A stretch of DNA of 64,000 bases from Candidatus Aldehydirespirator sp. GTDB lineage: Bacteria; Actinomycetota; Acidimicrobiia; Acidimicrobiales; Aldehydirespiratoraceae. Below, piece by piece: positions 5,447 to 62,829 of the stretch (position 1 is its first letter; each line of letters begins with the position of its first letter). The stretch is from contig OZ241894.1 of assembly GCA_965203575.1 (NCBI GenBank), forward strand, positions 2,380,322 to 2,444,321. Reading direction: 5' to 3'. The notes below the pieces were generated by a model. It ran no database searches. It was not told where the DNA came from and was given only the letters and a program-made list of their open reading frames with translations. A program made the translations under genes and the position numbers.

Positions 5447-6032
5447 GACTCACCAACCAACACAACCGCCGCTCGAACCGGACCCCCCGGCCCGCGGGGG
5501 GGGGGCGGACGCGGAGGCGGCGGCAGCCCACAGCCGCCGCCTCCCGGACGTGACGCTCGGTCCGGTTGTCGCCCGTATGCGGCCCGCCTGCGCTACCAGG
5601 ATCGCGCGCCTGCCGGACCGACGTGACGTTCACAGCGGCGTGCACCAGGCTCAACCTATACACCTTTCGCCTCAGCCACACGATCAACATATCATGCACA
5701 GTTCGACAAGTTCGACTGAATGAGACTATGAATGATCCTCTGAAACCGACGGACGCGGCAACCCACAGCCAGCACCGCCCCGCGCGACGCCGACGAGCGA
5801 CAACCACTCCGCCAAGCGTCCGGGTTGTCGGTACGCCCAAAGTGCGCGAGTATGGGTCGGGGTTTCCTTCCTTGACCGAGGCCGCGTGGGCCTCCGGTCA
5901 CCTAGCGGGGCGGTGGTGCGCACTACCGGGGGGAGGAGGTGCGCATCACCGCCACCGCCCGCGCTGCCCGCGCCTGCGTCGGCGCCCGCCGAGCAAGGTG
6001 ACCGCGCAGGGCCCGCCCGTGACCGGTGCCGA

Positions 6033-48395: not shown

Positions 48396-49322
48396 ATGGA
48401 CAGGTTGTGGACGGACGACGACGAATCGAATCCAGTTGACGATTGGGTCGAGAGGGTCACGTCCATAGGGCGGTTCAAGAGCAGGGACAAGGACAAGCGC
48501 GCCCCCTACAAGCCGTTGTTGCTGCTGTGGATGATCGGTCGCTTGGCTGGGGGGCTGCCGGGCCGTGTGTCGTTCCGGGAGGCGGAGGAGGACCTGCAGC
48601 GGCTGCTGAACAAGCACCCTGTGGGCAAGTCGAAGCCGAAGGTCGAGAATCCGTTCGTGTACCTCGCAAGCGACCCGAATCTCTGGCGGGTTGAGGATTC
48701 GGGCGGCGGCAATGTGGCCCGCATGGAGCGGCGCAAGAAGATGAGCCCGCCTTTCCTGCGGGCGGAGGCGACCGGCGCGCTCGCGCCCGAGTTCGAGCTG
48801 GCGCTGCGAGATCCGAACGTGAGATCCCGTGTCGTGAACGCCCTGCTTCGGATGGAGTTCCCCGATTCGCAGCACGAGGAAGTCCTGCAGGATGTGAACC
48901 TCGGTCATGTGGTGGCGGTCGCGCCGGCACCCCGTGATCCGAAGTTCAGGATCACGGTGCTGCGGGCCTACGAGGATCGATGCTCGTTCTGCGGATACGA
49001 CCTGCGTCTCGGCGGCTCGCCGGTGGGCATCGATGCCGCCCATGTGCAGATGCACAGAAAGGGAGGGCCCAACCGCATCGAGAACGGGATCGCGCTCTGC
49101 GTGCAGCATCACCGGCTGTTCGACGCGGGCGCGCTCGGCCTGAGCCAGGATCATCGGATCCTGGTGAGCGAGGACTTGAATCTGAGCGACCATGATTCGG
49201 CCGCTCGCATCAAGAGCCTCGTCGGCGAGCGGATGCGCACACCCCTGCGCCGGTACAGCCTCCCGGCCTCCGAGCACATCGACTGGCACACCAAGAACCT
49301 CTTCAAACACCCCGCCCGCTAG
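48396..49322 (+). CDS. HNH endonuclease with N-terminal SBD-like (phosphorothioate-DNA-binding type) domain
   Basis: C-terminal CSFCGYDLRL...IDAAHVQMHRKGGPNRIENGIALCVQHHRLFDAGAL (HNH). N-terminal RAPYKPLLLLWMIGRL..., ENPFVYLASDPNLWRVED and ALLRMEFPDSQHEEVLQDVNL resemble the family I recall as ScoMcrA-type sulfur-binding-domain HNH enzymes. Confidence 0.65.
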   Translation: MDRLWTDDDESNPVDDWVERVTSIGRFKSRDKDKRAPYKPLLLLWMIGRLAGGLPGRVSFREAEEDLQRLLNKHPVGKSKPKVENPFVYLASDPNLWRVEDSGGGNVARMERRKKMSPPFLRAEATGALAPEFELALRDPNVRSRVVNALLRMEFPDSQHEEVLQDVNLGHVVAVAPAPRDPKFRITVLRAYEDRCSFCGYDLRLGGSPVGIDAAHVQMHRKGGPNRIENGIALCVQHHRLFDAGALGLSQDHRILVSEDLNLSDHDSAARIKSLVGERMRTPLRRYSLPASEHIDWHTKNLFKHPAR

Positions 49323-49646: not shown

Positions 49647-49989
49647 AGCGATCGAGAGGAAGCAAGTCGTCGTTCGCTATGTTGTTGTCGGCTTCTTCGA
49701 GGTCGGCCATCGCTTCCGGGTCGTTGAGCAGGGCCAGGGTCTCGAGGGCGCCCTCGGGATCGTTCCAGTCCAGTTCGGGATGCTGTGATCGCAGTCGGCG
49801 CGCGGAAGCAGCGTCCAGATCCTTCTCGCCCAGCACCGCCGGACGGTCCGCGAGGGTCGCCTCGGGCCTAGTGGCGCCGATGGGTCCCGAGTGCGCCGGT
49901 TGGTCCACGTCCCGATCGTAACTCAGGACCGCGACGGCACCCGCCACTCCGCCACCGCAGAGACGGCCGCGCACTACCAGTTTCGTCAA
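49630..49989 (-). CDS. putative Phd/YefM-like antitoxin (start uncertain)
   Basis: C-terminal ...ETLALLNDPEAMADLEEA... is typical of Phd/YefM antitoxins; overlaps the toxin start by 17 nt. The track start is a TTG overlapping the SNF2 stop; GTG 49908 is an alternative. The N-terminal half is atypical. Confidence 0.4.
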   Translation of the reverse strand: MTKLVVRGRLCGGGVAGAVAVLSYDRDVDQPAHSGPIGATRPEATLADRPAVLGEKDLDAASARRLRSQHPELDWNDPEGALETLALLNDPEAMADLEEADNNIANDDLLPLDRYAPPL

Positions 49990-51548
49990 GGAGCTAGGAG
50001 TTCACGAACTGCGTCAGGACGGTGCTGGAGGGCGTCGATGAGCTGGTCAAACGTCATCTCCTTGCGGTCCAGGAGAGGCTGAAGGCGGTCCTCGACGGTA
50101 TCGGCGCAAGTCAGGTAGTGAACGATGACCGGCTTGGTCTGGCCGATCCGCACCACGCGGTCGACGGCCTGCGAGTTGGTCGACGGGTTCCACCAGCGGT
50201 TGACGAAGATCACCCGGTTGGCCTCGGTGAGGGTGAGGCCCTCGCTGGCGACCCGCGTTGAGGCCAGCAGCACCCAGCAGTCGGGATGGGTCTTGAACCG
50301 CGCCACCGAACGCCTTCGTTGATCGAGCGGCTGCTCTCCGGTCAGCATGGCGGCGATGTTGCCATGGGCGGCGACTAGCCGTTTCTGTAGGTGCCGCAGC
50401 GGGTCGAGCATGTACGAGAACACGACCGTCTTGCACCCGTCGGCCATCGCGGACTCGGCGAGCTCGACAGCACGGTCGAGCTTGGCACTCGCGCCCGTCT
50501 CGGGATCGATGTCGCAGATTGATCGCAGCCGGTTGAACAGGGCCAGGTACCCCTCCTCGGAGCGACGGCCCATGGACGACAGGGCGGCGCTGTAGGCACT
50601 CCGCTGCGCGCCGTGAAGTCGGACCTTCTCGACGTGCTCGGTCGCTGCTGGCAGTTCCGGCAGAACGAGATCCTTGGTGCGGCGCAGCAGGTAGGGCCGG
50701 ACCCGGGAGCGCAGCGCGTCGATTCCGTGACGGTGGTCATCGATGGCGAATCGGCGGGGTTCGAGCAGTGACAGCAGGCAGGCAAGATCCTGCGAGTCGC
50801 GCTCCACGGGGGTACCGGTGAGGGCCCACACCCGCGGTGCGGCTATCCGGCGCATCGCCTGGTGAGCGAGCGACTCAGCCTTGCGGAGGCGGTGTGCCTC
50901 GTCGGCGACGATCAGGTCGGGCGGCTGGCCTGCAAGATCGTCCCAGAGCCCGCGCAGGTCTTCGTAGCTGGCTAGAAGGACATGTGCTCGGGCCACGGCG
51001 CCGCGCCAGTGCGCCGGGGTGAAGGTGCGGTTGGTGAACTCCAACCGTTGAGCGATGAGTTCGGGCGCCCACTTGTCGACTTCAGCTAGCCAGTTCGCAA
51101 GCAGTGTCCGGGGTGCGATGACGAGACACGACTCGATGCGGCCGTATCGGTACAGTCGCCTAATCGCAGCGATCACCTGAATGGTCTTGCCCAGCCCCAT
51201 GTCGTCCGCGAGGATCGCCTTGCGATTCTGCAGCAGCCAAGCAACGCCTTTGCGCTGGAACGGGTAGAGATCGTCGCGCACACCCGGCGGCAACAGGAGC
51301 GGCAGAACCCGGCGTAGCCTGCGATCACAGTTGCGCTCATACCCAGGCCGCGGATCGAACGCCAAGGCCAGAGAGTCGGGCGCTACTGCTCGTAGGCGGC
51401 GCGCCAAGCCGCCGTCCCACCTGACCAGTGACTCCGCCGCTTTGTGCAGTCGAGCGCTGCCGGACGATGCCTCAGGGGAGCACGCGATCTCGAACCGATT
51501 GACGTCTTCGGAGGCCGTTACCGATGATGAGATCTGTCGCGAGTCCAT
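49986..51548 (-). CDS. SNF2-family helicase/ATPase
   Basis: DMGLGKTIQ (motif I), DEAHRLRK (II), LTGTPVERD (III), and ...NPSTNSQAVDRVVRIGQTKPV (VI, QxxDRxxRIGQ). Confidence 0.9.
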   Translation of the reverse strand: MDSRQISSSVTASEDVNRFEIACSPEASSGSARLHKAAESLVRWDGGLARRLRAVAPDSLALAFDPRPGYERNCDRRLRRVLPLLLPPGVRDDLYPFQRKGVAWLLQNRKAILADDMGLGKTIQVIAAIRRLYRYGRIESCLVIAPRTLLANWLAEVDKWAPELIAQRLEFTNRTFTPAHWRGAVARAHVLLASYEDLRGLWDDLAGQPPDLIVADEAHRLRKAESLAHQAMRRIAAPRVWALTGTPVERDSQDLACLLSLLEPRRFAIDDHRHGIDALRSRVRPYLLRRTKDLVLPELPAATEHVEKVRLHGAQRSAYSAALSSMGRRSEEGYLALFNRLRSICDIDPETGASAKLDRAVELAESAMADGCKTVVFSYMLDPLRHLQKRLVAAHGNIAAMLTGEQPLDQRRRSVARFKTHPDCWVLLASTRVASEGLTLTEANRVIFVNRWWNPSTNSQAVDRVVRIGQTKPVIVHYLTCADTVEDRLQPLLDRKEMTFDQLIDALQHRPDAVRELLAP

Positions 51549-51601
51549 GGCATCAACTCGGCGGGCAGGATTGGGGTCCGAATGGCACCGTTGCGCCTCG
51601 C

Positions 51602-53017
51602 TCAGCCAACCACTCCCGCTTCGACTTCAAGCCACAATGAATCGGCCTCGGCTGCTGCGGAAGCCGGAAGATAGGCGTACCAGAGGCTGCGCAGCCCACC
51701 CGTTCCGCTGATCTCCTCCTCGGTCAACGGGTCGACGCCGCATTGCCAGCGAACAATGCGCTCCATCAACTGCATGCGCTTCTTGCGTTCCTCGTTGACG
51801 ATTCGCCAGGACGCGGAGGGATCATCTGTCGGTACCAACATGATGTACTTCCATGGTGGGAGGTGGGCATCCCAACTGATCTGGCTCAGCGGATAGAGCG
51901 CCTCGCAGGCTTGCTCGACTGTCATGGGTTCTCGTGACATCGTGTCAGGCATGACTGAGTCGTCAAGTAGGGCCCTTGCCAGATCCGCCACCATTTGTTG
52001 AACCACCGGCCAGAAGAGTACGCAGTCCTGTGATGCTTCGGGGTCGTCTCGCTGCTCAGGAGGCCGGTGATCTCGCATCTGTCTGCCATCTTCACTAATG
52101 ATTGGCAGGGTTTCAATCAGAGCCTCCCAGTACGTGAATACCTCTACCTCTAAAGCATCGATCTCCTCATCCGAGGGACGGAACTTCTTGTAGACTTGCA
52201 GCTGCTCCTGGTTGGCGCCCCAACCCGTGTTGCGTCGTTGTCTGCTCGCCAGCAGTCGAACATTGAGTTCGTACAGAACCTCTAGCGTAGTGAAGAACGG
52301 GTGACTGATTCCAAGGTTCTTGCCAGGCTCCATCCGTATGCGGCCACTGTCGAACTCCGATTCACTGAAGCTGCTGAAGAATGGGTGTTGGGAAACGAGT
52401 CGTCGAGTGACGATAGCTAAGGCGTCGTCTTCATCCATGATGATGTTGTCGTATTGTGACATCGCCTTTGCATATCGATTCAAATGGCCAAACAGTCGCC
52501 TATATCGCACAATGAAATTCGAGGTCTCCTCGAGCTGCTGAGGAGTCACAATGAGTACGCTCACTTCCTCATCACGAAAATGCTCAGGTGGCCTGAAGTC
52601 GGTCGTGTGGTCCAGGAGACTGCGGATTGCTGCGAGACGGTGCTGCCCGTCGAGCGCGTAGTAGTTCTCCGTGCCGTCGAAGGTGAGCACGCCGAAGGCG
52701 TCAGTCAACCGTCCTTTTCCTAGCAACTCGAACTTCGGGTCTTCCTCAAGGCTGACTGGGTGCCACTTGGGGTCGCCTCCGAGAGCTGCGACGACGATGG
52801 CCCCAAAGAACCGGTCGTCATGTCGGGCAAGGTATCTGGCGATCTCGCCCGTGGCGCGGTTCTTGTTGAGGTTGCGCTGAATGGCATCTGACAATTGGGA
52901 GGCACCGTGGATCTCTTCCGCGTAGCGGATGTTCTGAGCGATCTCTACCATCGACATTCGTACGAGATAGTATTGCCAGCGCCCCATTCGGGCTTGCACG
53001 GCGGGATAGATTTGCAC
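51602..53017 (-). CDS. DGQHR-domain (DndB-like / ParB-fold) protein
   Basis: ...NYYALDGQHRLAAIRSL... DGQHR signature preceded by QRNLNKNRATGEIARYL and FFGAIVVA. GTG start with aggtg RBS. Markedly lower GC than neighbours. Confidence 0.8.
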   Translation of the reverse strand: MQIYPAVQARMGRWQYYLVRMSMVEIAQNIRYAEEIHGASQLSDAIQRNLNKNRATGEIARYLARHDDRFFGAIVVAALGGDPKWHPVSLEEDPKFELLGKGRLTDAFGVLTFDGTENYYALDGQHRLAAIRSLLDHTTDFRPPEHFRDEEVSVLIVTPQQLEETSNFIVRYRRLFGHLNRYAKAMSQYDNIIMDEDDALAIVTRRLVSQHPFFSSFSESEFDSGRIRMEPGKNLGISHPFFTTLEVLYELNVRLLASRQRRNTGWGANQEQLQVYKKFRPSDEEIDALEVEVFTYWEALIETLPIISEDGRQMRDHRPPEQRDDPEASQDCVLFWPVVQQMVADLARALLDDSVMPDTMSREPMTVEQACEALYPLSQISWDAHLPPWKYIMLVPTDDPSASWRIVNEERKKRMQLMERIVRWQCGVDPLTEEEISGTGGLRSLWYAYLPASAAAEADSLWLEVEAGVVG

Positions 53018-53037
53018 GATGCACCTGCTTTCACAAT

Positions 53038-53514
53038 CTAGGCGGGGACTGCCTGCTTGATTCGTCCTGATACCGGTTGTGCTGATGGGATCACTCGGTT
53101 CGCGGGTGGGTCCAACACAGTCACGAGAATGTGCTCTGTTTGGTTGAGCCAGTTACTCGACCTCGTCGTGGCATTCTCAGGTACTCGGGTGTATGAGAAG
53201 CGCAGGCGTCCGAATATCGAGCGGAACTGCTTGATACGTTCGTTTTGTGGGTTCGGCGCAGCGTGTTGCCAGAAGCGCCGACGTAGGTTCTTGGTTTGGC
53301 CGACGTACAACACACCCGAGACTTCACTCGGAAGCGAGTAGATGTCTGACAGGATCGTTGGAGAAACATGAAGTATGTAGATTCCTCTTGCTTGTGGCAC
53401 CGCTGAGTCGAACAGCGTGTCCAACCAGGTCGAGTGCCAGTCGGTGCCTTCCAGCGCAGAGATGACGCGGCTCCAAGCGTCGGCGCTTAGGGATAGCCCT
53501 CTAGATCCTGTCAT
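53038..53514 (-). CDS. small GIY-YIG-like nuclease-domain protein
   Basis: GIYILHV...VLYVGQTKNLRRRFWQH...NQTEHIL...N: GIY, YVG, Arg, Glu and Asn elements in the order of GIY-YIG domains, though the GIY-to-YVG spacing is longer than usual. The start overlaps the upstream stop by 14 nt. Confidence 0.55.
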   Translation of the reverse strand: MTGSRGLSLSADAWSRVISALEGTDWHSTWLDTLFDSAVPQARGIYILHVSPTILSDIYSLPSEVSGVLYVGQTKNLRRRFWQHAAPNPQNERIKQFRSIFGRLRFSYTRVPENATTRSSNWLNQTEHILVTVLDPPANRVIPSAQPVSGRIKQAVPA

Positions 53515-56071
53515 GTCCCTGGATGCTCACTGATTTGGGTGCAGGTTCACCGGATTCCTTGAATCGAGCCGCCAGCGGGGCGGCGATGGTGATGCCGCCG
53601 ATGGTGGGAGGCAGTTGCTGGAAGGAAGTAGGCGTCCCAGCGTGGAGTGGCGAGCCTTTGGTCGGTAGCGGGTTCTCGGGTCTCATCGCCAGACCGAAGG
53701 TGACTTCCGAGGGATTGTGAATGGTGAGGCTCACACTGGCACCTTCATTGATTCCGAGTGCTCGCAGCGCCGGGCCCAGACGACCGATCTCGGGCCCGTG
53801 CATCGAGGTCTTGCGCCAGATGACTGAGATGTCCTGACAGCCGTGCGGTGAGCGGACGGCAGCTGTGGTCTTGGTTCCGAAGTAGCAACCCAGCGCGGCC
53901 GCGACGGACGGTGGAACGCTGTGAAGGCTGTAGCCGTCGAGGTGCCGGTCGTACACTGAGAACGACCAGTACGGGTCGTCGTTGTCGTCGCGTCCGTCGA
54001 TCACGTCGTCGAGGCGGCCGACATCGATTCCGGTGCCGTCAGCCTCACTCACCCAGCCGTGCTCCACTCGGAACGCGGGCGTGTTCAAGTACGCCCAGAC
54101 GCTTCCCTCGTTCACTCCGAAGAGGCGGGGAAGCTCGTCAAGAACGCGGTTGAGGCGGGTTGATCCTCCGTCCTCGTTGATGCGCTGCACGATCTCGGCG
54201 GGAATGCCCTCGTAGATGTCGTCTATCCACTCCCGCAGGCCCCAGCGGTGCTTGTCAGCTCGGGCGACTGAGGGGATGTTCGACAGTGCGCCGGCCACCT
54301 GTCGTTCGGACAGGCTGGACTCCTGGGCGAGTTCTGCCTTGGTGGCGGGCGAGCCGATCTTGAGCAGAGCAGCCTTGACCCGGGCTCGAACCGTAGCTCG
54401 GGGCGCGACGTGATCGAACAGGCAGTGCCATCCGATCCAGCGTGTGAGCAGCTCTGAGTGGTCGTGCCACTCGGGGGCGAGCGCACTCCGTAGCCGATCG
54501 GTGGAAATCAGGCCAGCATCGTCTACGAGCTCGTCGACAGCGCCCTTCAGTGCCTCAGCAGCCTCTACAGCCGCAGGGCTGAGGCAGAGTCCCTCGCGGC
54601 ACTCGTAGCCGAGCATGGCGCCTAGCATTCTGCGAGCCACGAGAAGGGCTTGCTGCGCCACCTCGTCTTCGGGCTTAGGAAGTAGCTCAGTCGTCGTAGT
54701 CTCGGTCTCGAGAACTGTCGTCACTTCACCGAGACGCTGATAAGCGATCAATTCGAGAATCCTGAGGGCCGGACCCGCGGCATCTTCCAGTTGCTCCTGA
54801 GCCTTGCGGGCGATCTGACGAATTCGCTCTCGTGACAGTCCTACGCGCTCTGCGAGTTCCGCGAGCGTCATCGGCGAGTCCGATGCAACACGTTCGAGCA
54901 CAGCTAGCCGCTCAATATCGGTCATCTGCGCCAGCGTTGCGCTGACCATCTCGACCGCTCGATCAGTGACCGTGGGGGCATCGATCCCCAGCGGCAGACC
55001 ATCCAGCCCAGCGTCCGCTTCAGCTGCCGCGATCAGATCCGATAGATCCAGCCGGAGCAGATCCCCGAAGGTCGTGGCCCCTCGGAATTCAGCGGCAGCG
55101 GCAGCGATCAGCTCGACCGCGTCGGAATGCAGGACCGCTTCGGGAATTGTTCGGTGCTGAAACGTGACCTCAGCGTGCGCTGAGGCTTCGGCGGTCTGGG
55201 CCGTGCCGACTGCAGCCGCCGGCCATTCGAAGTTCTCGGCTGCCTCGAGTACACACATCAGGTCAAGTAGCGACGCGATCCCAAAGCTGGGCAGACGCAT
55301 CAACTGCCCGAGCGTTGCCTCGGAGAGCGCCCCGCTAGTCAAGCCGGCGCGAAGACAATTGCGTGTCCGGTTCGCAAGCGGCAGGCGGTCAAGTTCGTCG
55401 ACGTCCAAGTGGGGCGGGAGTACCTTGAGACCCTCGGGCGGCAGCATTCTCATGGCCATGTCACGCAGCAACCAGGCCGACACAGCCTGGACGGGCTCGT
55501 TGTAGTGCTCCCAGAAGCGTGCCAGGTCCCGAACATGCCGAGTCGCCGGGTAGGCGCTCGTGAACTCCCGCGGGAGCGTCTTGTGACCATGAGACACCAG
55601 ATACCAGCGCGGTAGAAGGGGGGTGGGCGGGCTGCCCCAAGGTGCTGGCGGGTCGCTGGATGCAATGGAGGGCAAGTCGTCCGCAGGAACGTCGAAATGC
55701 TGAGGCTCAGCGGTCGGCTCACGATTCCTTGAGGCCCCATTCAGCCGCAGCGCGACGCGTCGCCGGCCGGTGACGACTAGATCGACCGACTGTTCGGAGC
55801 AGGCCCCGATGTTCTTCAGAGGCTCGGCGATACTGAGTACGACCGTTCGTGGCGGATCGCCCTCTTCCAAGCAGACCGTCAGTTTGCGGCAACCCATAGG
55901 ATCCTCGACCGCGACGCGAGTGAGCGCGCCGGGCTTGCAGCCGAGTTGGGCGGCGACCTCCTTGGGGAAGGCGACCCGACGGTTGTCCTGAAGGAGGGCG
56001 TCGGTTACTCGGAACGTCCAGGCTGGATTGCCGTCGGTATCCCTCCGCGTTGATGCGACCGCGCTTCTCAT
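53501..56071 (-). CDS. 856-aa multi-HTH protein: related N- and C-terminal ~90-aa domains, RpoA-alphaCTD-like HhH, sigma-70 region-4-like HTH, winged-helix segment
   Basis: ATG 56071 forms an ATGA overlap with the sspD-like stop. NRTRNCLRAGLTSGALSEATLGQLMRLPSFGIASLLDL (alpha-CTD-like). MTLAELAERVGLSRERIRQIARKAQEQL (sigma r4-like). Terminal domains share W(T/S)FxVxD...(F/V)PxxVAAxLGC..G..T..AV..P.GC. The track's extra 121 N-terminal codons overlap sspD out of frame and are rejected. Confidence 0.7.
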   Translation of the reverse strand: MRSAVASTRRDTDGNPAWTFRVTDALLQDNRRVAFPKEVAAQLGCKPGALTRVAVEDPMGCRKLTVCLEEGDPPRTVVLSIAEPLKNIGACSEQSVDLVVTGRRRVALRLNGASRNREPTAEPQHFDVPADDLPSIASSDPPAPWGSPPTPLLPRWYLVSHGHKTLPREFTSAYPATRHVRDLARFWEHYNEPVQAVSAWLLRDMAMRMLPPEGLKVLPPHLDVDELDRLPLANRTRNCLRAGLTSGALSEATLGQLMRLPSFGIASLLDLMCVLEAAENFEWPAAAVGTAQTAEASAHAEVTFQHRTIPEAVLHSDAVELIAAAAAEFRGATTFGDLLRLDLSDLIAAAEADAGLDGLPLGIDAPTVTDRAVEMVSATLAQMTDIERLAVLERVASDSPMTLAELAERVGLSRERIRQIARKAQEQLEDAAGPALRILELIAYQRLGEVTTVLETETTTTELLPKPEDEVAQQALLVARRMLGAMLGYECREGLCLSPAAVEAAEALKGAVDELVDDAGLISTDRLRSALAPEWHDHSELLTRWIGWHCLFDHVAPRATVRARVKAALLKIGSPATKAELAQESSLSERQVAGALSNIPSVARADKHRWGLREWIDDIYEGIPAEIVQRINEDGGSTRLNRVLDELPRLFGVNEGSVWAYLNTPAFRVEHGWVSEADGTGIDVGRLDDVIDGRDDNDDPYWSFSVYDRHLDGYSLHSVPPSVAAALGCYFGTKTTAAVRSPHGCQDISVIWRKTSMHGPEIGRLGPALRALGINEGASVSLTIHNPSEVTFGLAMRPENPLPTKGSPLHAGTPTSFQQLPPTIGGITIAAPLAARFKESGEPAPKSVSIQGHDRI

Positions 56072-56925
56072 AGGGCGCAGACTGTGCAGGGTTCGGTGTC
56101 GTCTTCTTCGTTGAAGGCGTCGGCTAGGGCTTCGATCAGGGGGAGGTTGGCCCTGGTCTTGCTGGCGCGGGCCATGGCGGTCTCGTGGCGTTCGAGGATC
56201 TGGTCGCGGCGGTTGCGGAGCTGGACAAGGGTCTCGCCGCCGGACCAGGTGTACTGGCGGCCTCGCATGGCTCGGTCGCCGAAGTCGGCGTCGCCGTCGA
56301 CGCCGGCGTCCTGGAGGACCTTCTGCTCGATGGCCACCGCCCGCTCGAACAGGTCCGGGTGGCGCTCGGCGAGGCCGATCCACTCGGCCTTGCGCTGGTA
56401 GAAGCAGAAATAGCAGCCCGAGCGGGTCCGCCACTCGTAGTAGGCGGGCAGGCCGATCCCGGCATCGTCTAGGAGCCTCAGCACCTTCGCATGGTCGATG
56501 CCGTCCTCCACGAACGGGAAGCGGGTCTTGATGTTGGGCTTGGTGGAGACGTAGCCCTTGCGGTTCGACTCGTCCGCCCGGATCGCCACGTACGACACCG
56601 CCGGGGCGTCACCGATCCACTCCTCGATCGGCTTGATCTTCATGTTCTTGGTGCACCACCGCATCTGCGGCGACGGCAGCGCCCCCCTGAACACCTCGAA
56701 CCAGTGGTCGAAGCCCCGCGACGCGTTGAGCCTGACGATCGGCCGGCCCAGGATCACCTCCAGGCGGGTCAAGTACTCGTAGGTCTCGGGCAGCTCCGCA
56801 CCGGTGTCGCAGAAGAAGTACTCCATCTCCGGCACGCGGTCCCGCATATACACCGCCAAGGCGCTGGAGTCCTTCCCGCCCGAGATCCCGCAGATGTGGC
56901 GCACCGGCGCCTCCGGCTCACCCAC
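56068..56925 (-). CDS. sspD: PP-loop ATP pyrophosphatase, PAPS-reductase family (SspD/DndC-like)
   Basis: ICGISGGKDSSAL (SGGxDS PP-loop); 285 aa (short, SspD-like rather than full DndC); 8-nt overlap with the upstream ATPase gene. Confidence 0.75.
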   Translation of the reverse strand: MGEPEAPVRHICGISGGKDSSALAVYMRDRVPEMEYFFCDTGAELPETYEYLTRLEVILGRPIVRLNASRGFDHWFEVFRGALPSPQMRWCTKNMKIKPIEEWIGDAPAVSYVAIRADESNRKGYVSTKPNIKTRFPFVEDGIDHAKVLRLLDDAGIGLPAYYEWRTRSGCYFCFYQRKAEWIGLAERHPDLFERAVAIEQKVLQDAGVDGDADFGDRAMRGRQYTWSGGETLVQLRNRRDQILERHETAMARASKTRANLPLIEALADAFNEEDDTEPCTVCAL

Positions 56926-59900
56926 CGGCCACCCTCCTTCGCGCCGCGCCGACCGGGCTCTCGTCAGCGGGAGCCGAGCTGAGGTCGCTGGCTCGGGACT
57001 CGGGCAGCAGGCGCTCGCTCAGCAGCGCCAGGAGGCTCTGGTGGGCGGTCAGGGCCGAGCCCGTGATCTGTGCCAGATCGGCCAGCACCTCTTCCAGCGC
57101 GTCCTCCAGCTCGGGTCGGCGCCTGCCGTCGATGCCCACCAGGCGGATGTACTCGCTTCCGTCGGAGCGGGTGACGGTCACGCGCAGCGCGTCGAACGGG
57201 CCCCTGCCGTCGGCACGGCGCTCCGCGTGCAGGGCGACCAGCCGATGGAACGCCGCCAGTCTCTCGGGCAGCTCGCGGTCGAAGCGCAGCCGGTCGTCGT
57301 CGGTCCATTCCGCAGGGGCCTTGCGGGCCACGACAGTGGCGACCGCCGCCATCCAGGCCGCGTCCGACTCGACGCCGTCGTTGGCCAGGGCGAGCACGAA
57401 CGCCCTTACCTCGGGGTCGAGGACCTCGTCGCCGAGCAGAGCGGCCTCGCCCGTCACCGGCATCCGGCTGCCCGCTCCGCAAGCGTCGAGCAGCGACTCC
57501 ATCAGACCGTCCAAGAGTCGATCCAGGCTCGACTCCAGCTCGGCCAGAGCGGCTGCGACCGCCCTCGCGAATTCGGCTGCGAACTCACAACCGGTCGCGT
57601 CCGCAGCCACGGGGCGGAAGCCCAGCGCTCGGGGCAGGTCGGTGAACAGCAACTCGTCGGGCTCGACTGCTTCGGTCAGAGCGTCCCGCACGGCTCGCGA
57701 CTCGGCGCTCACGCTGCTCGTGCGGCGTGCGTAGTTCTCGAGTCGGCTGATCCGCAGGACAAGGCTGGTGACCACGGCGAGAACATTCGCCACTCGTCGT
57801 TTGCCCCCTCCGATCCGGTGCTCAGCGCGTGTGCGAGCCAGTGCAGGCTGCGAGTGATCCCCGGCGTCCACCGAGAGTCCCAACTGCTCGGTGAGAGCCT
57901 CCACGACCATGAGCCGCCCGCCGCTGGCGTTGGCGAAGTGCTTGACATCGAAGTGGCCCGGATTGCGCACCATCCGCTCGGAGACCTCGGGTGACAGAAC
58001 CGGCTTGAACGTTCCGTGCTCGTAGATGGCGACCTCGTCGCGGAAGGCCAGCAGACCCGCAGTGACGAAGACGGGTACCACCGCAGCCTTCATGCCGACA
58101 GGGGGCGAACGCAGCGCGGCGTGGACGCTGTTCAGGTTGATCCGCCGGTCGGTCGAGCGCCGGAACTCGCCCTCGAGGATCTCCCAAGCGGGCTTGAGCG
58201 TCTCATCGGCGGGCGGTCCGAAGGACATGGTGCCGCCGCGGGGATCGACGGCGTGAAGCCCGGTCCGCAGCAGGAACGCTCGATACATAGCCGTCTCCGG
58301 GCCGTATCCCTCGAATCCCAGATCGGCGATGCCGGACTCGCCGCGTTCGATCATGGCTTCCAGGAGCAGGCGGCGCGACTTGGCTCCCTGGGAGGTGAGT
58401 TCGCTCCGGTTGAGCATCTCATTGCCAACCACGGGGGTGGACGGGTAGGCGATGTCCGCGGCCGATGACAGGGCGGCGCTGCCCCGCCCGCCGGCCAGTT
58501 CGGTTGGGCCTGCGCCGTCCTCGCCCCCCAGCAGGATCCAACGGCAGGATTCGGCGCCGAACGTGTCGGCCAGGGCCTGATCGAAGGCGACTCGGGTCTG
58601 CGCCAGCCGCTCGCCCAACTCGCGCCGCGCCACCTGGTCCTCGGCTACCGCGGGGTCGTCGAGCACCGAAGCCACTGCGGCGATCTCCCGGGCGGCCGCG
58701 TCGAGCGCCGACACATCCCGGGGCAGCGCCGCCACCACCGGCTTGGACCCGTCCACGGATTGGGCGACGGTCGGCGGGCGGCCCGAAGGGTCGACAACGA
58801 GGAGCGCCTCGCCGTCGTAGGGGGAGAACGGCTCGGGAGCCGTGGCCTGCTCGCCCGCTTCGGCATAACGCCGGCGGAAGACGCGCAACACATCGTGCTC
58901 CGCGCTGTGGCGCGCCGCCACGACCGGCTCCGGCCGGTCGGTCTCCGCCACCATCCCAGCGAGCGGCCTGCGCTGCATTCTCTGACGGGCGGAGTCGAGG
59001 AGCAGACCGACGTCGACGTCGCTGCCCTGCCATATCCGGTACTCGTCGGCGAAGTCCCGGAAAGTGACGATCCCCATGCTCTCCAGATCGGCGAGAGCGG
59101 CGTGGGCGCCCCTGCCGGACATCTCCAGGACCTGCCGGGACGCCCGGATGGTCCCCGTCGTGGACACCAGGTTCAACAGAGCGACGGACTTGGCCGTGCG
59201 GGCCTGCGACGGCGTGAGGCCATGGGTGTCGCGCAGCCGGGTGGCGACCTCACTCCAGCGGCTCGACTGGCGCGCCGAGGAGATGCTGAGGGCGCCGCTC
59301 GCTACGAAGTAGTCGTACACCGCTTCGAGGCCAAGGGACGGCAGCGGCCCCCTCGCCGGAAGGTTCGCAGCGCTGAGGAACGACAGGACGCCCGCAGGGT
59401 GCGGGCCGGCGAGGAAGGAGAAGAGCGTTCGTTCGTGCTGGCCGTAGCGGCTGCACAATTCGGGCAGCACGAGCGCCGCCAGCGGGTGAAGCGGGTAGCA
59501 GGCGGCCAGGACGGTCGGGTCGGCGAGGTCCGCGATGCCCAAGGCACGCATCTTCCGGGCGTGCGAGCGCGCCCAGCGGTCGATGCGGGTCCGGAGGTGT
59601 TCGTCGCGGACGTCGAACACGGTGCCGATGAGGGATCGGGTCTGCCCGGCCGAGTCCACGAAGGACACGTCCTCGAAACGGCCCTGCACCTTGGCCCACT
59701 CACGGCGCTGAGCGCTGTCGGCGCTGGCCAGGCAGTCGTCGAGGGACACGTGCTGCAGAGTGACCACGAAGATCGGCAGTCCCGATCCCTGGCCGGCCTC
59801 CGCGAGACGTTGCAGCAGATACGGATCCGCGCCGTGTCCGTCACGAACGGCTTCTAGGTTCTTGCCGAACTCGTCGATGATCAGCAGCAGCGGCGCGTCC

Positions 59901-60477
59901 TCGGCCAGCCGGCGCGCGATATCAACCAGGATCGAGGGTGAAGGGCCGCCTCCCCGGATGTCGTCGTGAGCGGTGTCCTCCAGGGAGCGGATCAGCTCTG
60001 GAGCGTCACCGAGGCAATCCGCAGGGGGGGGGTCTGGTCGTCGCGGAGAACGGCGGATTGCAGGGCGCGCAGCACTGTGCGGGCCAGCGGCTCGCGCTCC
60101 GCGGTGACGAGCGCGCGGGTAAAGCCGCGGTTCAGGGTTCCGTGGCGCCGGTGGGCCCTCCGGATCAGGTCGCCCGATGCGTCCGACGCGTCGTCGATGA
60201 TCCCGAGGGCTGAGCGCCGGAGCTGCGAGCGGCCGCCGAAGGCCGCGTCCAGCAGCAGGGCGAGCGACGACTTACCCGATCCGTACGGACCGGTGAGCGA
60301 CCAGGCACCGCCCGCGGGTCCCGTCGCTGCGGTAGTTGCGATGCGCTCGACCACATCGAGGCCTCGGGCGGTGAGGACGTATCCGTCCAGCGGTTCGGGC
60401 CGGGCGAGGTCGCGCTCGAGGTTCGCCGAGCGGGCGAACCGGCCGCTGACCGAGATGGCGTCACCAAGGGTCGGCAT
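56918..60477 (-). pseudogene. sspC: ~1187-aa P-loop NTPase (SspC-like) split by a frameshift in a C9 (G9 on + strand) tract
   Basis: 5' part 60477..59992 carries GPYGSGKSS (Walker A). The frame shifts at 60024-60032. By hand translation the downstream frame is open from at least 60059 and reads ...PPPADCLGDAPELIRSLEDTAHDDIRGGGPSPSILVDIARRLAEDAPLLLIIDEFGKNLE... (Walker B), joining the 949-aa ORF. One extra C would fuse both parts. Confidence 0.75.
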
Positions 60478-61532
60478 CAGCCGGCTCCCGCCAGGGCGTG
60501 CAGGCTCCGGAGGCTGTCTGTGGAGTTGCGGCCTGCGCCGAGGTCCTCGAGAAGGTTGTCGTCCACCGCCAGATCCCCGATGCAGCCGGCGCACACTTCC
60601 GTCGCCGACGAGCCGTAGTAGTCGTTCAGGACCGCCGTCGCGATCTCTGCCGGGTCGCCCGAGCAGGCGAAGTGCCACGCCCCGGCCGGGGATGCGAGGC
60701 TCAGCCCTTCCGTTCGATCCACGGCAGGCTTGACCGCGGCCAGGAGCTCCGTCTCGTTCAGTTTGAACGCTCGGCCGGGCGCTCCGGGCTCGTGGGCCAG
60801 GCGGCTGAGCGTGACGGTCCTGCCGCCGCTGCCGGTGCGTTCGATGTAGTCGAGCACGGCGTGGACGGCAACCTCGGACGGCAGGGTCGGCTTGGGTCCC
60901 AGCGTGAAGCGAGGCAGTCCCGTTGCGGGAGACCGCCGCAGCAGGTTCAGTTCCCGCAGCGGGCAGTCCAGCAGGTCGTCCACGCTGATGCGGCGGGAAT
61001 GCTCCGACGGCGCATAGGTGCGCAGCAGGGCGCCGACGTCCTTCCTGACCGACGACTCGTGCGGCGCGGCCCAGTCCGCGGAGGCCTCCAGCTGCGTGGA
61101 GACCGCCCCGGCGAGGTCGGTGTCGCTGAACTCGACCGCGTTGAACTCGTTGAACGCGAGCCACCAGACCGGCAGACGCGAGGGCGGCGCCAGCAGCAGC
61201 CAGTGCAACAGCCAGAGCGTTCCGGGATCCTCCATGTAGGGGTCCCAGCCCTGCTCACCGAAGAGCGCGTGGCCGCGGCGGGTGGGCACGAACTGTGGCG
61301 CCCTGCGGTTCGGGGAGTGGGGATCCTCAGTGATGACCTTGGCGGCGAGGCCCCAGAAGCGGATGGCGCGCACCATGTTCTTGCCCACGCCTATTACCAC
61401 CGGCGCGTCCGGCCGCCCGAACGTGTAAGGATCGGCGGCTGCGACCGCATAGGCCTTGCGGAACCAGCCGAAGCGGGGGTGGAAGGTCTCGTGCCGGGCG
61501 AATGAGCGAACGGCAGCGTCCGGCAACCTCAT
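60477..61532 (-). CDS. sspB: DUF4007-like protein (SspB-like)
   Basis: N-terminal MRLPDAAVRSFARHETFHPRFGWFRKAY matches the HETF..R.GW..K signature I recall for DUF4007/SspB. ATG 61532 has a gggag RBS 8 nt upstream (GTG 61571 alternative). Its stop shares a base with the sspC-like ATG. Confidence 0.65.
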   Translation of the reverse strand: MRLPDAAVRSFARHETFHPRFGWFRKAYAVAAADPYTFGRPDAPVVIGVGKNMVRAIRFWGLAAKVITEDPHSPNRRAPQFVPTRRGHALFGEQGWDPYMEDPGTLWLLHWLLLAPPSRLPVWWLAFNEFNAVEFSDTDLAGAVSTQLEASADWAAPHESSVRKDVGALLRTYAPSEHSRRISVDDLLDCPLRELNLLRRSPATGLPRFTLGPKPTLPSEVAVHAVLDYIERTGSGGRTVTLSRLAHEPGAPGRAFKLNETELLAAVKPAVDRTEGLSLASPAGAWHFACSGDPAEIATAVLNDYYGSSATEVCAGCIGDLAVDDNLLEDLGAGRNSTDSLRSLHALAGAG

Positions 61533-61680
61533 TCGCCGGCTCCCGCATTCACGTCGATGAAGATACCGCACCCGTGTGACAGCGACCTGGGTCCTGCAAG
61601 CGAGTCCGTCAGACGGTCTGCCCTACACCCAGTTGGGCATCGGCATCACTGGCGCGACGCGGCGGGCTTGGTTCTGGCGA

Positions 61681-62829
61681 TCAGGTCAGGGCGCGGACAC
61701 GCTTGACGGCAGCGGTGGCGCTCTCTACTGCGGCGTCGACATCAGCCTCGGTGGTGAAGCGGCCGAGACTGAAGCGCACCGACTCGAAGGCGGTCTCATG
61801 GGACCGGCCCATGGCCACGAGAACCTCCGACGGCTCGATCGATCCTGCGCTGCAGGCACTGCCGATGGACACTGCGACAGGGTCCATGTTGGCCATGACC
61901 GCCTCGGCGTCGGCGCCCACGAAGCACAGATTGGCTGTGTTGGGCAGTCGCCTCGACGGGTCGCCGTTCTGCAGCACGCGGGGGAGGCTGGCCTGCAGTT
62001 CGGACACGAGGCGGTCGCGCAGCGCTCCTACAGTCTCGGACTCCCGTTCGCGCTCGTCAGCGGCTATACGGGCGGCGGTACCAAGGCCGACGATGCCAGC
62101 CACGTTGAGCGACCCCGAGCGCAGGCCTCGCTCGTGGCCGCCGCCGTGGAGCAGGGCTTCGAGTTGCCTGAGGCTGTGCCGGGTGCCGACCAATGCGCCC
62201 ACCCCGCCCGGGCCGCAGATCTTGTGCCCGCTCAGCGACACCAGGTCCACGCCCAGCGCCTCCATGTCGAACGGCAGGCGTCCCGCCATCTGGGTGGCGT
62301 CACAGTGGAACAGCGCGCCCGCAGCGTGTACCCGCTCCGCGATCTCACCCGCCGGGTTCAGAACGCCGGTCTCACTGTTGGCTGCCATGACCGACACAAG
62401 CACAACATCGTCGCCGACCATCTCTTCCACGGTGGCCGGCTCGACGAAGCCACCTGCGGTCACCTCGATCACATCCAGCTTCACCAGGCCATAGTCGGCG
62501 AGCCACCTCGCCGTACCTGCCACCGAAGCGTGCTCTACCGCGGAGACGAGCATCCTTTGCCTGTTTTGGGGGGCGGCCTCAAGGGCACCCTGCAGAGCCA
62601 GGTTGTTGGCCTCGGTCGCTCCCGAAGTGAACACGACCCCCGATGCGCGCCCGCCCACCAGAGCCGCTACGTGTTCACGGGCATCGTCCACCGCGGCCGC
62701 CTGTCTGCGTCCGAAGCGATGGACTGACGAGGCGTTGCCGACCGAGTCGGTCAGGATCGGCATCATCGCCTCCGCCACCCGCGGGTCGAGCGGAGACGAT
62801 GCGTTGTAGTCGAGATAGACCTCCCTCAC
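61681..62829 (-). CDS. sspA: class V cysteine desulfurase (SspA/DndA/IscS-like)
   Basis: SLSGHKICGP (PLP Lys), GSACSAGS (persulfide Cys) and HGGGHERGLRSG. GTG start with ggaggtggc RBS. Confidence 0.8.
   Translation of the reverse strand: MREVYLDYNASSPLDPRVAEAMMPILTDSVGNASSVHRFGRRQAAAVDDAREHVAALVGGRASGVVFTSGATEANNLALQGALEAAPQNRQRMLVSAVEHASVAGTARWLADYGLVKLDVIEVTAGGFVEPATVEEMVGDDVVLVSVMAANSETGVLNPAGEIAERVHAAGALFHCDATQMAGRLPFDMEALGVDLVSLSGHKICGPGGVGALVGTRHSLRQLEALLHGGGHERGLRSGSLNVAGIVGLGTAARIAADERERESETVGALRDRLVSELQASLPRVLQNGDPSRRLPNTANLCFVGADAEAVMANMDPVAVSIGSACSAGSIEPSEVLVAMGRSHETAFESVRFSLGRFTTEADVDAAVESATAAVKRVRALT

What the first reader, a model, noticed from the sequence alone, without database searches (positions are those of the whole stretch)
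60024..60032. sspC-like ATPase gene interrupted at a 9-nt homopolymer (G9 on +, C9 in the coding strand)
Seen in sequence:
- The frame carrying Walker A (…RALQSAVLRDDQTPP) runs into the C9 tract and stops 30 nt later at 59992.
- By hand translation the adjacent frame is open from at least 60059. It reads PPPADCLGDAPELIRSLEDTAHDD…LLLIIDEFGKNLE… (Walker B) and continues into the 949-aa ORF ending at 56918.
- Ten Cs instead of nine would give one uninterrupted ~1187-aa protein (…DDQTPPPADCLG…).

Possible explanations: a homopolymer sequencing or assembly error; a genuine inactivating mutation that decouples modification from restriction; or slipped-strand phase variation of a PT-writer gene. Slipped-strand switching is well known for methyltransferase mod genes, but I am not aware of it for phosphorothioation.

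Caveat: in 70% GC DNA a few G/C runs of 9 or more are expected by chance in 64 kb, so the tract alone is not remarkable. Its position inside an essential modification gene is.
Basis: seen in the sequence. Interest (0 to 1): 0.7.

Follow-up and report, generated by a model that had tools for sequence, protein, structure and literature searches.

The report
Length-variable poly-C switch inside sspC
A DNA-phosphorothioation gene (sspC) of an uncultured sponge-symbiont bacterium is knocked out of frame at a run of nine Cs; in dozens of related genomes the same run varies from 9 to 16 Cs, which looks like a slippage-prone on/off switch, not previously described for this kind of DNA modification in the papers I searched.

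Summary
C9 on the coding (-) strand at 60024-60032 splits an sspC gene. One extra C gives a 1186-aa protein that matches an SspC profile end to end, inside an sspA-B-C-D operon.

The tract alone is no more than chance (3 matches against 3.17 expected). Comparative data show it is not a random lesion:
- In 154 related loci, 13 of 20 with a C-run of 9 or more at this site are frameshifted, against 1 of 134 without one (p = 4e-13).
- The tract is kept throughout one whole sspC clade and arose at least twice more at the same codons. Elsewhere in these genes C-runs are avoided (0 of 67 Pro-Pro pairs are CCC-CCC).
- Alleles of about 94-95% DNA identity carry C9, C10, C11 and C12-13. Pairs 99-100% identical differ by one C (on versus off).
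- Both halves of the gene are under purifying selection (dN/dS 0.17-0.26).
- The C9 state recurs in three other assemblies.

Best reading: a hypermutable contingency tract that switches the PT-writer ATPase, caught here in an off length. This was not tested at read level. Single-locus consensus error and rescue by transcriptional or ribosomal slippage remain open. The closest precedent is the pglX G tract of Streptomyces Pgl.

The parts
60024..60032 (-). Poly-C tract (C9 on the coding strand). It covers the Thr-Pro-Pro-Pro codons (ACC CCC CCC CCN) in the linker between Walker A and Walker B of SspC. It is one base short of the in-frame length of C10.
   Evidence: Homologous tracts of C9 to C16 in relatives.
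59992..60477 (-). sspC 5' fragment, from the ATG at 60477 to the premature TGA at 59994-59992. It encodes 161 aa carrying Walker A only (GPYGSGKS at 60268-60291). The ATG overlaps the sspB stop by one base.
   Evidence: It is identical to the public protein P0255 (161 aa, from a 3.93-Mb contig).
56918..60023 (-). sspC 3' part in the other reading frame, open from 60271. It contains Walker B (LLLIIDEFG at 59864-59890) and the rest of the roughly 1030-residue body. The first possible start codon is the GTG at 59767 (949 aa), after Walker B.
   Evidence: PADLOC SspC match of the repaired protein. The 949-aa ORF is identical to P0132.
60477..61571 (-). sspB (DUF4007).
   Evidence: Pfam PF13182 at 3e-78. 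PADLOC SspB PDLC02768 at 330 bits.
61681..62829 (-). sspA, cysteine desulfurase.
   Evidence: Pfam Aminotran_5. PADLOC SspA at 441 bits. NCBIfam IscS/NifS/DndA-like.
56068..56925 (-). sspD, a PAPS-reductase-like sulfur transferase. It overlaps the sspC stop by 8 nt.
   Evidence: PADLOC SspD PDLC02782 at 365 bits, covering 1-276 of 277 model positions.
53501..56434 (-). Large ORF with a sigma-70 region 4 type HTH in its middle. The listed ORF overlaps sspD, so the true start is probably near 56070. Homologues of 800-870 aa follow sspD in L163, L164, L168 and L170.
53038..53514 (-). Small GIY-YIG domain protein.
51602..53017 (-). DGQHR / DndB-like protein. DndB is the regulator of dnd operons.
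   Evidence: Pfam DndB at 3.6e-30. TIGR03187 DGQHR at 96.9 bits, above its cut-off.
49986..51548 (-). SNF2-family helicase in the variable cassette downstream of sspD.
48396..49322 (+). Phosphorothioated-DNA-binding HNH restriction endonuclease (ScoMcrA-like).
   Evidence: NCBIfam NF045808 at 219.9 bits against a cut-off of 180. The L001 homologue carries Pfam PF26340 DNA-SBD_ScoMcrA plus HNH_2.

Best explanation
The C9 run is one length state of a hypermutable poly-C tract that a whole clade of sponge-symbiont sspC genes carries in the Thr-Pro-Pro-Pro codons between Walker A and Walker B. Strand slippage during DNA replication adds or removes Cs. The gene therefore flickers between in frame (C10 here, giving full-length SspC) and out of frame (C9, C11, C12 and so on).

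In this window the tract is one base short. Translation ends after 161 residues, and no downstream start can give a protein with both Walker motifs. This genotype should therefore make no functional SspC ATPase, and hence no SspABCD phosphorothioate marks, unless slippage restores the frame.

Shown:
- The anatomy of the interruption.
- The identity of the gene.
- Conservation of the tract and polymorphism of its length.
- The link between the tract and frameshifts.
- Purifying selection on both halves of the gene.

Inferred:
- That the length changes arise by replication slippage at high, reversible frequency.
- That they switch PT modification on and off in the population.
- That this is used as bet-hedging, as in other phase-variable modification systems.
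For: Gene identity and operon.

Frameshifts occur almost only where the tract is long. Of loci with a C-run of 9 or more at the site, 13 of 20 are shifted, against 1 of 134 without one (Fisher p = 4e-13; details).

The tract sits at the same codons despite strongly diverged flanks. An NJ tree shows it in every informative member of one large clade. It also appears in two further lineages, L069/L099/L105 and L081.

Same-species alleles with identical flanks differ in length:
- WIN has C9.
- L001, L162 and L163 have C10 and are intact (1181-1186 aa).
- L002, L003, L168, L169 and L170/L171 have C11.
- L163 (C10) and L169 (C11) are 100.0% identical over 3 kb. L162 (C10) and L003 (C11) are 99.0% identical.
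- L099 (C12) and L135 (C9) are 99% identical.

N-terminal fragments in the window's 90% cluster show the same spread. Eight are 157 aa (the C11 state). Four are 161 aa (the C9 state, three of them independent of the window, one seen in a Logan assembly). One is 162 aa (the C12-13 state). Full-length 1186-aa members are in the matching C-terminal cluster.

The only indel inside the sspA-D coding sequence that is not a multiple of three, between the window and L001, L002 or L003, is at the tract.

dN/dS is 0.17-0.26 for both halves, including the window (C9) against L003 (C11).

C-runs are avoided elsewhere in these genes. CCC is 36% of Pro codons, yet 0 of 67 Pro-Pro pairs are CCC-CCC. G/C runs of 9 or more are depleted overall (32 against about 76 expected in 1.84 Mb), and 20 of the 32 lie at this site.

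The 28 tract loci split into 11 in frame, 9 with one base too many and 8 with one too few.

Precedent: a G tract in pglX gives phase variation of Streptomyces Pgl at 1e-2 to 1e-4 (PMC4365076).
Against: - No reads were available, so heterogeneity within a sample and reversibility are untested.
- The window is probably from a 3.93-Mb MAG chromosome. If that is a long-read assembly (my inference), homopolymer length is its typical residual error.
- The tract is a technical trouble spot. Three short-read scaffolds (L015, L164, L165) break there with poly-G/N junk. Some of the truncated proteins are therefore assembly breaks, not clean frameshifts.
- L163 and L169 may be two assemblies of the same sample. 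In that case their C10/C11 difference shows mixed reads, but not whether the mixture is biological.
- About two thirds of tract alleles are out of frame, which is what unconstrained length would give. This fits less easily with a gene that must work, unless switching is fast or expression is rescued at the RNA or ribosome level.
- Tract presence and neighbourhood are phylogenetically correlated, so the loci are not independent samples.
Confidence: 0.68

Rival explanations
1. Consensus or assembly error at a homopolymer. The organism really has C10 and an intact sspC, and the window's C9 is a one-base undercall.
For: - The tract causes technical failures in other assemblies. Scaffolds L015, L164 and L165 break at it with poly-G/N junk.
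- The window's two ORFs match proteins from a 3.93-Mb contig. That is probably a long-read MAG chromosome, where homopolymer indels are the main residual error (inference from general knowledge).
- L163 and L169 are 100% identical but are called C10 and C11.
Against: - Out-of-frame lengths also occur in assemblies whose names indicate short-read pipelines: L002, L008, L168, L169 and L170.
- C9-state N-terminal fragments occur in three other, non-identical sequences of the same 90% cluster, one of them also in a Logan assembly.
- Lengths two or more off the in-frame value exist, at C12, C13 and C16.
- C11 is the commonest call in this species group, not C10.
- No other frameshift was seen in the window's tested adjacent ORF pairs or in sspA-D.
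Confidence: 0.15
2. Expression-level recoding. RNA polymerase slippage on the C run, and/or tRNA-Pro slippage on CCC-C during the Pro-Pro-Pro stall, makes enough full-length SspC from any tract length. Out-of-frame alleles would then be functional, and the DNA frame would be nearly neutral.
For: - The frame states are close to one third each (11 in, 9 plus, 8 minus).
- Both halves nevertheless stay under purifying selection, even between two out-of-frame alleles.
- A +1 shift on C11 or a -1 shift on C9 would give exactly the C10 protein (derived from the sequence).
- From established knowledge: CCC-C sites are known to be prone to +1 shifts, long homopolymers promote transcriptional slippage, and ancient frameshifts in poly(A) tracts of insect endosymbionts are rescued in this way.
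Against: - There is no conserved frameshift direction and no conserved flanking signal, because the flanks are highly diverged.
- The downstream RNA folds no better than shuffled sequence (z = 0.62).
- As far as I know, RNA polymerase slippage is best documented on A/T runs, not C/G runs.
- Recoding does not exclude DNA-level switching. It would only make the off state leaky.
Confidence: 0.12
3. Irreversible pseudogenisation. The Ssp writer is decaying in this lineage, and the frameshift is simply the first lesion.
For: - The gene is interrupted, and neither fragment has both Walker motifs.
- No SspE or SspFGH partner was detected among the downstream ORFs scanned.
- Published surveys found 84% of sspBCD clusters without such partners (PMC8092258).
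Against: - There is no second lesion anywhere in sspA-D.
- dN/dS is 0.17-0.26 on both sides of the tract.
- Intact alleles exist in near-identical strains.
- The same site, and essentially only that site, is hit in 13 independent loci.
Confidence: 0.04

Closest known systems
[quoted passage not shown]
   Same: A G/C homopolymer sits inside the coding sequence of a component needed for DNA modification, in a modification-based phage defence system of a high-GC bacterium. Changes in tract length switch the system on and off (1e-2 to 1e-4 per generation in Pgl).
   Different: - The switched gene there is a methyltransferase, and here it is the ATPase of a phosphorothioate writer.
- Pgl switching is shown experimentally, whereas here it is inferred from allele comparisons.
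- Here the tract is conserved across a gene clade that is spread over MAGs assigned to several phyla.
Phasevarions: simple-sequence-repeat switching of Type III mod and Type I hsd genes in Haemophilus, Neisseria and Helicobacter (reviewed in PMC12707154)
   Same: Slipped-strand mispairing in a repeat inside a DNA-modification gene gives on and off subpopulations.
   Different: - Those systems write methylation, not phosphorothioation.
- The hosts are pathogens rather than uncultured sponge symbionts.
- A regulatory (epigenetic regulon) consequence is shown there and is unknown here.
Canonical SspABCD-SspE and SspABCD-SspFGH systems (Vibrio cyclitrophicus FF75, E. coli 3234/A, V. anguillarum FF-93; PMC8092258)
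   Same: The same four writer genes occur in the same order. The repaired SspC matches SspC profiles end to end. Those systems write 5'-CpsCA-3' on one strand.
   Different: - No homopolymer tract is described in those genes.
- Most homologues surveyed here have IP(P/S) encoded without a long C run at the site.
- No SspE or SspFGH was detected here. Instead there is a variable cassette with a DndB-like DGQHR protein, GIY-YIG, an HTH protein and SNF2, plus a PT-dependent HNH nuclease.
Homopolymer-tract phase variation in Mycobacterium tuberculosis (PMC10334774, PMC11898584)
   Same: Reversible frameshifts occur in short G/C homopolymers of coding genes in a high-GC actinobacterium (abstracts).
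   Different: - Those genes are metabolic or secretion genes, not a defence or modification system.
- The tracts are usually shorter.
- That work used clinical isolate collections with read-level validation.

Membership tests
SspC, the ATPase of the SspABCD phosphorothioate writer | End-to-end match to an SspC profile | tested here: met
   After adding one C, PADLOC PDLC02781 scores 990 bits over protein 16-1132 and model 2-1104 of 1104. Eleven further SspC models also hit. No Pfam or NCBIfam model matches.
SspC, the ATPase of the SspABCD phosphorothioate writer | Operon context sspA-sspB-sspC-sspD | tested here: met
   SspA, SspB (DUF4007) and SspD profiles match the flanking genes on the same strand, with overlapping stops and starts.
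SspC, the ATPase of the SspABCD phosphorothioate writer | Walker A and Walker B motifs in one polypeptide | tested here: not met
   Both motifs are present but in different frames on either side of C9. The first start in the downstream frame lies after Walker B. They are joined only in the C10 version.
SspC, the ATPase of the SspABCD phosphorothioate writer | PT (CpsC) modification of host DNA | not testable with these tools
   This needs LC-MS/MS or iodine-cleavage sequencing of DNA.
Simple-sequence contingency locus (phase-variable gene) | A repeat tract inside the ORF whose length sets the reading frame | tested here: met
   C9 lies in the coding sequence. Adding one base or removing two restores the frame.
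Simple-sequence contingency locus (phase-variable gene) | Tract length differs between closely related strains while the rest of the gene stays intact | tested here: met
   C9, C10, C11 and C12-13 occur at about 94-95% DNA identity. C10 and C11 occur at 99.0% and 100.0% identity. The tract is the only frame-breaking indel. dN/dS is 0.17-0.26.
Simple-sequence contingency locus (phase-variable gene) | Tract maintained against codon-usage expectation over evolutionary time | tested here: met
   The tract is present throughout a clade with flanks down to about 60-65% nucleotide identity. Elsewhere, 0 of 67 Pro-Pro pairs are CCC-CCC.
Simple-sequence contingency locus (phase-variable gene) | High-frequency reversible switching within a clonal lineage, with a phenotype | not testable with these tools
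   This needs reads, amplicons or cultures.
Programmed ribosomal frameshift gene (prfB or dnaX type) | The same frameshift state and direction conserved in orthologues | tested here: not met
   Of 28 tract loci, 11 are in frame, 9 have one base too many and 8 have one too few. Homologues without a tract are single ORFs.
Programmed ribosomal frameshift gene (prfB or dnaX type) | A stimulatory RNA structure or conserved flanking signal | tested here: not met
   The fold of 111 nt around and after the tract has z = 0.62 against shuffles. The flanks are not conserved between clades.
SspABCD-SspE or SspABCD-SspFGH defence system | An adjacent sspE or sspFGH restriction module | tested here: not met
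   PADLOC scans of the ORFs downstream of sspD (53501-56434, 53038-53514, 51602-53017) and upstream of sspA gave no SspE, F, G or H hit. The SNF2, HNH and PLD ORFs were scanned only against Pfam and NCBIfam.

The most novel reading that the evidence does not exclude
The poly-C tract is a portable phase-variation device that travels with this sspC clade between sponge symbionts of different phyla and gives them a switchable phosphorothioate epigenome. In part of these loci it would act together with the neighbouring PT-dependent HNH nuclease. Cells would then alternate between marking their own DNA with PT (writer on) and attacking PT-marked incoming DNA (writer off, reader nuclease free to act). 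This would avoid a clash between writer and reader, and would stop phages that have picked up PT marks in sister cells.
Probability: 0.12. Interest if true: 0.85.

Novelty: new member of a known kind. Interest (0 to 1): 0.6.

Why it matters
Phase variation of DNA-modification genes is a central theme for methylation systems (phasevarions, Pgl/BREX). In the literature I could search it has not been described for DNA phosphorothioation.

If the switch is real, several things follow:
- PT marks in natural sponge-symbiont populations would be heterogeneous by design.
- That would affect how PT-based defence, PT-dependent nucleases and phage escape play out in a community where PT systems are enriched (PMC5099237).
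- Many split or truncated sspC annotations in sponge MAGs would be switch states or assembly breaks rather than pseudogenes. This matters for defence-system censuses.
- The tract offers a simple, testable handle (C9, C10 and C11 constructs) for asking what happens to a cell when the PT writer is turned off next to its putative effectors.

Tried and rejected
- Conserved two-ORF architecture: rejected. Homologues without the tract are single ORFs. Intact alleles exist in the same 90% clusters. The called starts of the downstream fragment vary (949, 981, 996, 999, 1000, 1014 and 1023 aa).
- Old pseudogene: rejected on dN/dS and on the absence of other lesions.
- Specific programmed ribosomal frameshift: not supported, because both directions occur and there is no RNA structure.
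- General sloppiness of the window's assembly: no sign of it. The suspicious overlapping ORF pairs at 15-19 kb are distinct genes (a ROK regulator, an M20 peptidase and a periplasmic binding protein). The 0.5-5.4 kb pair (486-2159 and 1895-5446) had no Pfam match, so the test was uninformative there.
- The second long run, G10 at 5496-5505, was looked at only briefly.
- The JGI metagenome scan found no close relatives of the window (best 64% identity). It did add three tract alleles of a second clade.
- Exact look-ups of the window's 949-aa ORF and of P0132 found no contig on record. The source contig itself could therefore not be read.
- No solved structure is related by sequence, so the position of the tract in the fold was not examined. 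No structure prediction was run.
- Whether L163 and L169, or L170 and L171, are the same sample assembled twice could not be checked.

Full report
**1. What is in the window**

On the minus strand there is an operon:
- sspA at 61681-62829, a cysteine desulfurase.
- sspB at 60477-61571 (DUF4007, PADLOC SspB at 330 bits).
- An interrupted sspC at 56918-60477.
- sspD at 56068-56925 (PADLOC SspD at 365 bits).

The sspC ATG at 60477 overlaps the sspB stop. The frame from that ATG carries Walker A (GPYGSGKS, 60268-60291). It then runs into C9 (60032-60024 on the coding strand) and stops 30 nt later at 59994-59992. The next frame is open from 60271 to 56918 and carries Walker B (LLLIIDEFG, 59864-59890) and the rest of the protein.

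One extra C gives a 1186-aa protein. It matches PADLOC SspC model PDLC02781 over 2-1104 of 1104 positions at 990 bits. The first start codon in the downstream frame is at 59767, after Walker B. Neither product of the C9 allele can therefore be a complete P-loop ATPase.

**2. Is the tract itself unusual?**

No. C9 has 3 overlapping matches in the window against 3.17 expected from shuffles. The only other long runs are G10 at 5496-5505 and C7 at 24226. The case rests on comparison with relatives.

**3. Relatives**

A protein search with the repaired SspC found more than 2500 homologues. Among the closest clusters, many were called as proteins of about 950-1040 aa that begin just after the tract.

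Scans of one genome per species and of JGI metagenomes gave 158 loci. Nearly all of the named ones are MAGs whose names or assembly-sample labels point to sponge-associated bacteria. They are assigned to Acidimicrobiia, Gammaproteobacteria, Gemmatimonadota, Latescibacterota, Acidobacteriota and other groups. Three of the window's closest relatives had already been fetched by exact look-up, and ten more loci were fetched the same way later.

For each locus I compared the reading frame of the N-terminal 145 residues with that of residues 191-450.
- Of 20 loci with a C-run of 9 or more at the homologous site, 13 are shifted.
- Of 134 loci without such a run, one is shifted: L154, a distant homologue.
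- The Fisher test gives p = 4e-13.

These loci are phylogenetically related, so the p-value overstates their independence. The pattern is still clear.

**4. The tract is conserved but its length is not**

At the same codons, flanked by sequence that has diverged to about 60-65% identity, relatives carry C9, C10, C11, C12, C13, C14 and, in broken scaffolds, C13 to C16.

An NJ tree of the C-terminal part puts the window in a large clade. Every member of that clade with sequence at the site has the tract. Two other lineages (L069/L099/L105 and L081) have one at the same position.

Homologues outside these lineages encode YG(K/R)IP(P/S)xxxF there, with mixed Pro codons and runs of 7 or fewer.

Elsewhere in the sspC genes of the tract-bearing loci, CCC makes up 36% of Pro codons. 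Yet only 6 of 67 Pro-Pro pairs start with CCC, and none is CCC-CCC. In 1.84 Mb of locus DNA there are 32 G/C runs of 9 or more against about 76 expected, and 20 of the 32 are at this one site. Long C runs are therefore generally avoided but kept here.

**5. Variation among near-identical alleles**

Ten loci share the window's exact flanks (GACGACCA[G/T]A-Cn-[T/G]GCGGAT) and are about 94-97% identical in DNA.
- The window has C9.
- L001, L162 and L163 have C10 and intact genes of 1181-1186 aa.
- L002, L003, L168, L169 and L170/L171 have C11.
- L163 (C10) and L169 (C11) are 100.0% identical over the next 3 kb.
- L162 (C10) and L003 (C11) are 99.0% identical.

In the second clade, L099 (C12) and L135 (C9) are 99% identical.

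The 90% cluster of N-terminal fragments that contains the window's own 161-aa product holds eight sequences of 157 aa (tail ...TPPPCGL.R, the C11 state). It also holds four of 161 aa (tail ...TPPLRI.SVT, the C9 state) and one of 162 aa (the C12-13 state). Three of the 161-aa sequences are not the window's, and one of those is also found in a Logan assembly. The matching C-terminal clusters mix members of 1186-1187 aa with truncated members.

Over all 28 tract loci, 11 are in frame, 9 have one base too many and 8 have one too few.

**6. The gene is otherwise healthy**

Between the window and L001, L002 and L003, the only indel inside the sspA-D coding sequence that is not a multiple of three is at the tract. 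dN/dS is 0.17-0.26 for both the part before and the part after the tract. This includes the comparison of two out-of-frame alleles, the window (C9) and L003 (C11), at dS of about 0.14-0.18. This rules out an old pseudogene. It means that the frame has been restored often, or is bypassed during expression.

**7. Interpretation**

The simplest account is a hypermutable homopolymer, a contingency locus. Replication slippage changes the tract length, which switches SspC, and with it PT writing by SspABCD, on and off. The window shows an off length.

The mechanism of length change, its rate and its reversibility are inferred, not shown. The closest precedent is the G tract in pglX, which makes the Streptomyces coelicolor Pgl system phase variable at 1e-2 to 1e-4 (PMC4365076). 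The general model is the phasevarion (PMC12707154).

SspC is one of the three core activities of the Ssp writer (PMC12707154), so an off allele should abolish modification.

No SspE or SspFGH partner was found. This is common: 84% of sspBCD clusters lack them (PMC8092258). The cost or benefit of switching off therefore cannot be predicted from known partners.

**8. Rivals**

(a) Consensus error.
- The window's two sspC fragments are identical to public proteins from a 3.93-Mb contig. That is probably a long-read MAG chromosome, which is my inference. Homopolymer miscalls are the typical residual error of such assemblies.
- The tract also breaks three short-read scaffolds, with poly-G/N junk. 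Some of the truncated proteins are therefore artefacts.
- Against an error as the general explanation, out-of-frame lengths occur in assemblies from different pipelines. C9-state alleles recur independently, lengths two or more off exist, and C11 rather than C10 is the commonest call in the window's species group.
- For this single window I leave about 15%.

(b) Recoding by transcriptional slippage, or by tRNA-Pro slippage on CCC-C at a Pro-Pro-Pro stall.
- It would explain why frames are close to one third each while selection persists.
- It would give exactly the C10 protein from C9 or C11.
- There is no conserved direction and no RNA structure.
- It is compatible with DNA-level switching and would make off states leaky.

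(c) Irreversible decay is very unlikely.

**9. Novelty**

Full-text searches combining phosphorothioation or sspC with phase variation, homopolymer or frameshift, plus a recent large review, gave no report of phase-variable PT systems. PT systems are known to be enriched in sponge metagenomes (PMC5099237). The library does not cover subscription journals, so absence there is not proof.

I class this as a new member of a known kind. It is an ordinary homopolymer switch, but in a new type of modification system. It is conserved across a gene clade shared by several phyla of uncultured symbionts.

**10. Limits**
- All tract lengths come from assemblies.
- My assignment of sequencing technology rests on contig naming conventions.
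- Loci fetched through cluster members were chosen by protein length and were left out of the Fisher test.
- The tree is a simple NJ tree on identity distances.

Noticed in passing
window 48396-49322 (+): A phosphorothioated-DNA-binding HNH restriction endonuclease (NCBIfam NF045808 at 220 bits against a cut-off of 180; the L001 homologue has the ScoMcrA sulfur-binding domain) lies 6.7 kb from the end of sspD. A PT reader-nuclease therefore sits next to a PT writer. Homologues lie in the flanks of 7 of 21 tract-bearing loci (counting the window itself, whose HNH gene lay outside the searched segment), against 2 of about 140 others. This comparison is not corrected for phylogeny.
   Followed up: partly
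window 49972-56055: The cassette between sspD and the HNH/ParE region is variable. The window has an HTH protein of roughly 850-977 aa, a GIY-YIG protein, a DGQHR/DndB-like protein, an SNF2 helicase and a 119-aa ORF. L001 and L162 have only GIY-YIG plus DndB-like in about 1.7 kb. Synteny with L001 resumes at 49972.
   Followed up: partly
L028:5723 (G15) and L037:5726 (G11); also L079:5700 (C11) and L062:5753 (G9): Other ssp operons, in Spongiisociaceae and other MAGs, carry long G/C runs near the 3' end of sspB. With G15 in L028 the sspB frame is split, and with G11 in L037 it is intact. This looks like a second, independent homopolymer switch site in the same pathway.
   Followed up: partly
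L049:6161 and L096:4161 (G14); L094:5696 (G19); L060:8393 (C9) and L060:9072 (C10): Further long runs lie inside sspC at other positions. G14 in the Gly codons just before Walker A comes with a frame break. G19, C9 and C10 are in frame in L094 and L060.
   Followed up: no
L164:1735-1900; L165:1-130; L015:1-105: Short-read MAG scaffolds break exactly at the sspC tract, with 60 or more Gs, Ns and G/C-rich junk. Some of the 1000-aa SspC entries in public protein sets are therefore assembly artefacts rather than clean frameshifts.
   Followed up: yes
window 5496-5505: G10 is the only other long homopolymer in the window. It is preceded by C6 (ccggaCCCCCCggcccgcGGGGGGGGGGcgg), which forms an inverted repeat. 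It lies about 50 nt beyond the listed start of the 1183-aa ORF 1895-5446 (-). Its coding status and variability were not examined.
   Followed up: no
L004-L083 (record titles): Closely related sspC genes (55-78% aa identity) sit in MAGs assigned to many phyla: Acidimicrobiia, Gammaproteobacteria, Gemmatimonadota, Latescibacterota, Acidobacteriota, Spirochaetia and Alphaproteobacteria. Most appear to be from sponges. This suggests wide horizontal spread of the operon within sponge microbiomes, or some mis-binning.
   Followed up: no
window 53501-56434 (-): The listed 977-aa ORF overlaps sspD by 366 nt in another frame. Homologues in L164, L168 and L171 (L163/L170 start about 120-170 nt after it) begin at the sspD stop and are about 800-870 aa, so the real start is probably near 56070. 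Only a sigma-70 region 4 HTH is recognisable, around residue 500-550.
   Followed up: no
window 47520-48191 (-): A small PLD-like nuclease domain protein (weak matches to NgoFVII N-terminal and DrmC-like models) lies next to the HNH gene. It adds to the defence-island character of 47.5-63 kb.
   Followed up: no
L154: This is the only frame break found at this region in a locus without a long C run. It is a distant homologue (about 45% identity) on a 2.9-kb contig, and the cause was not examined.
   Followed up: no
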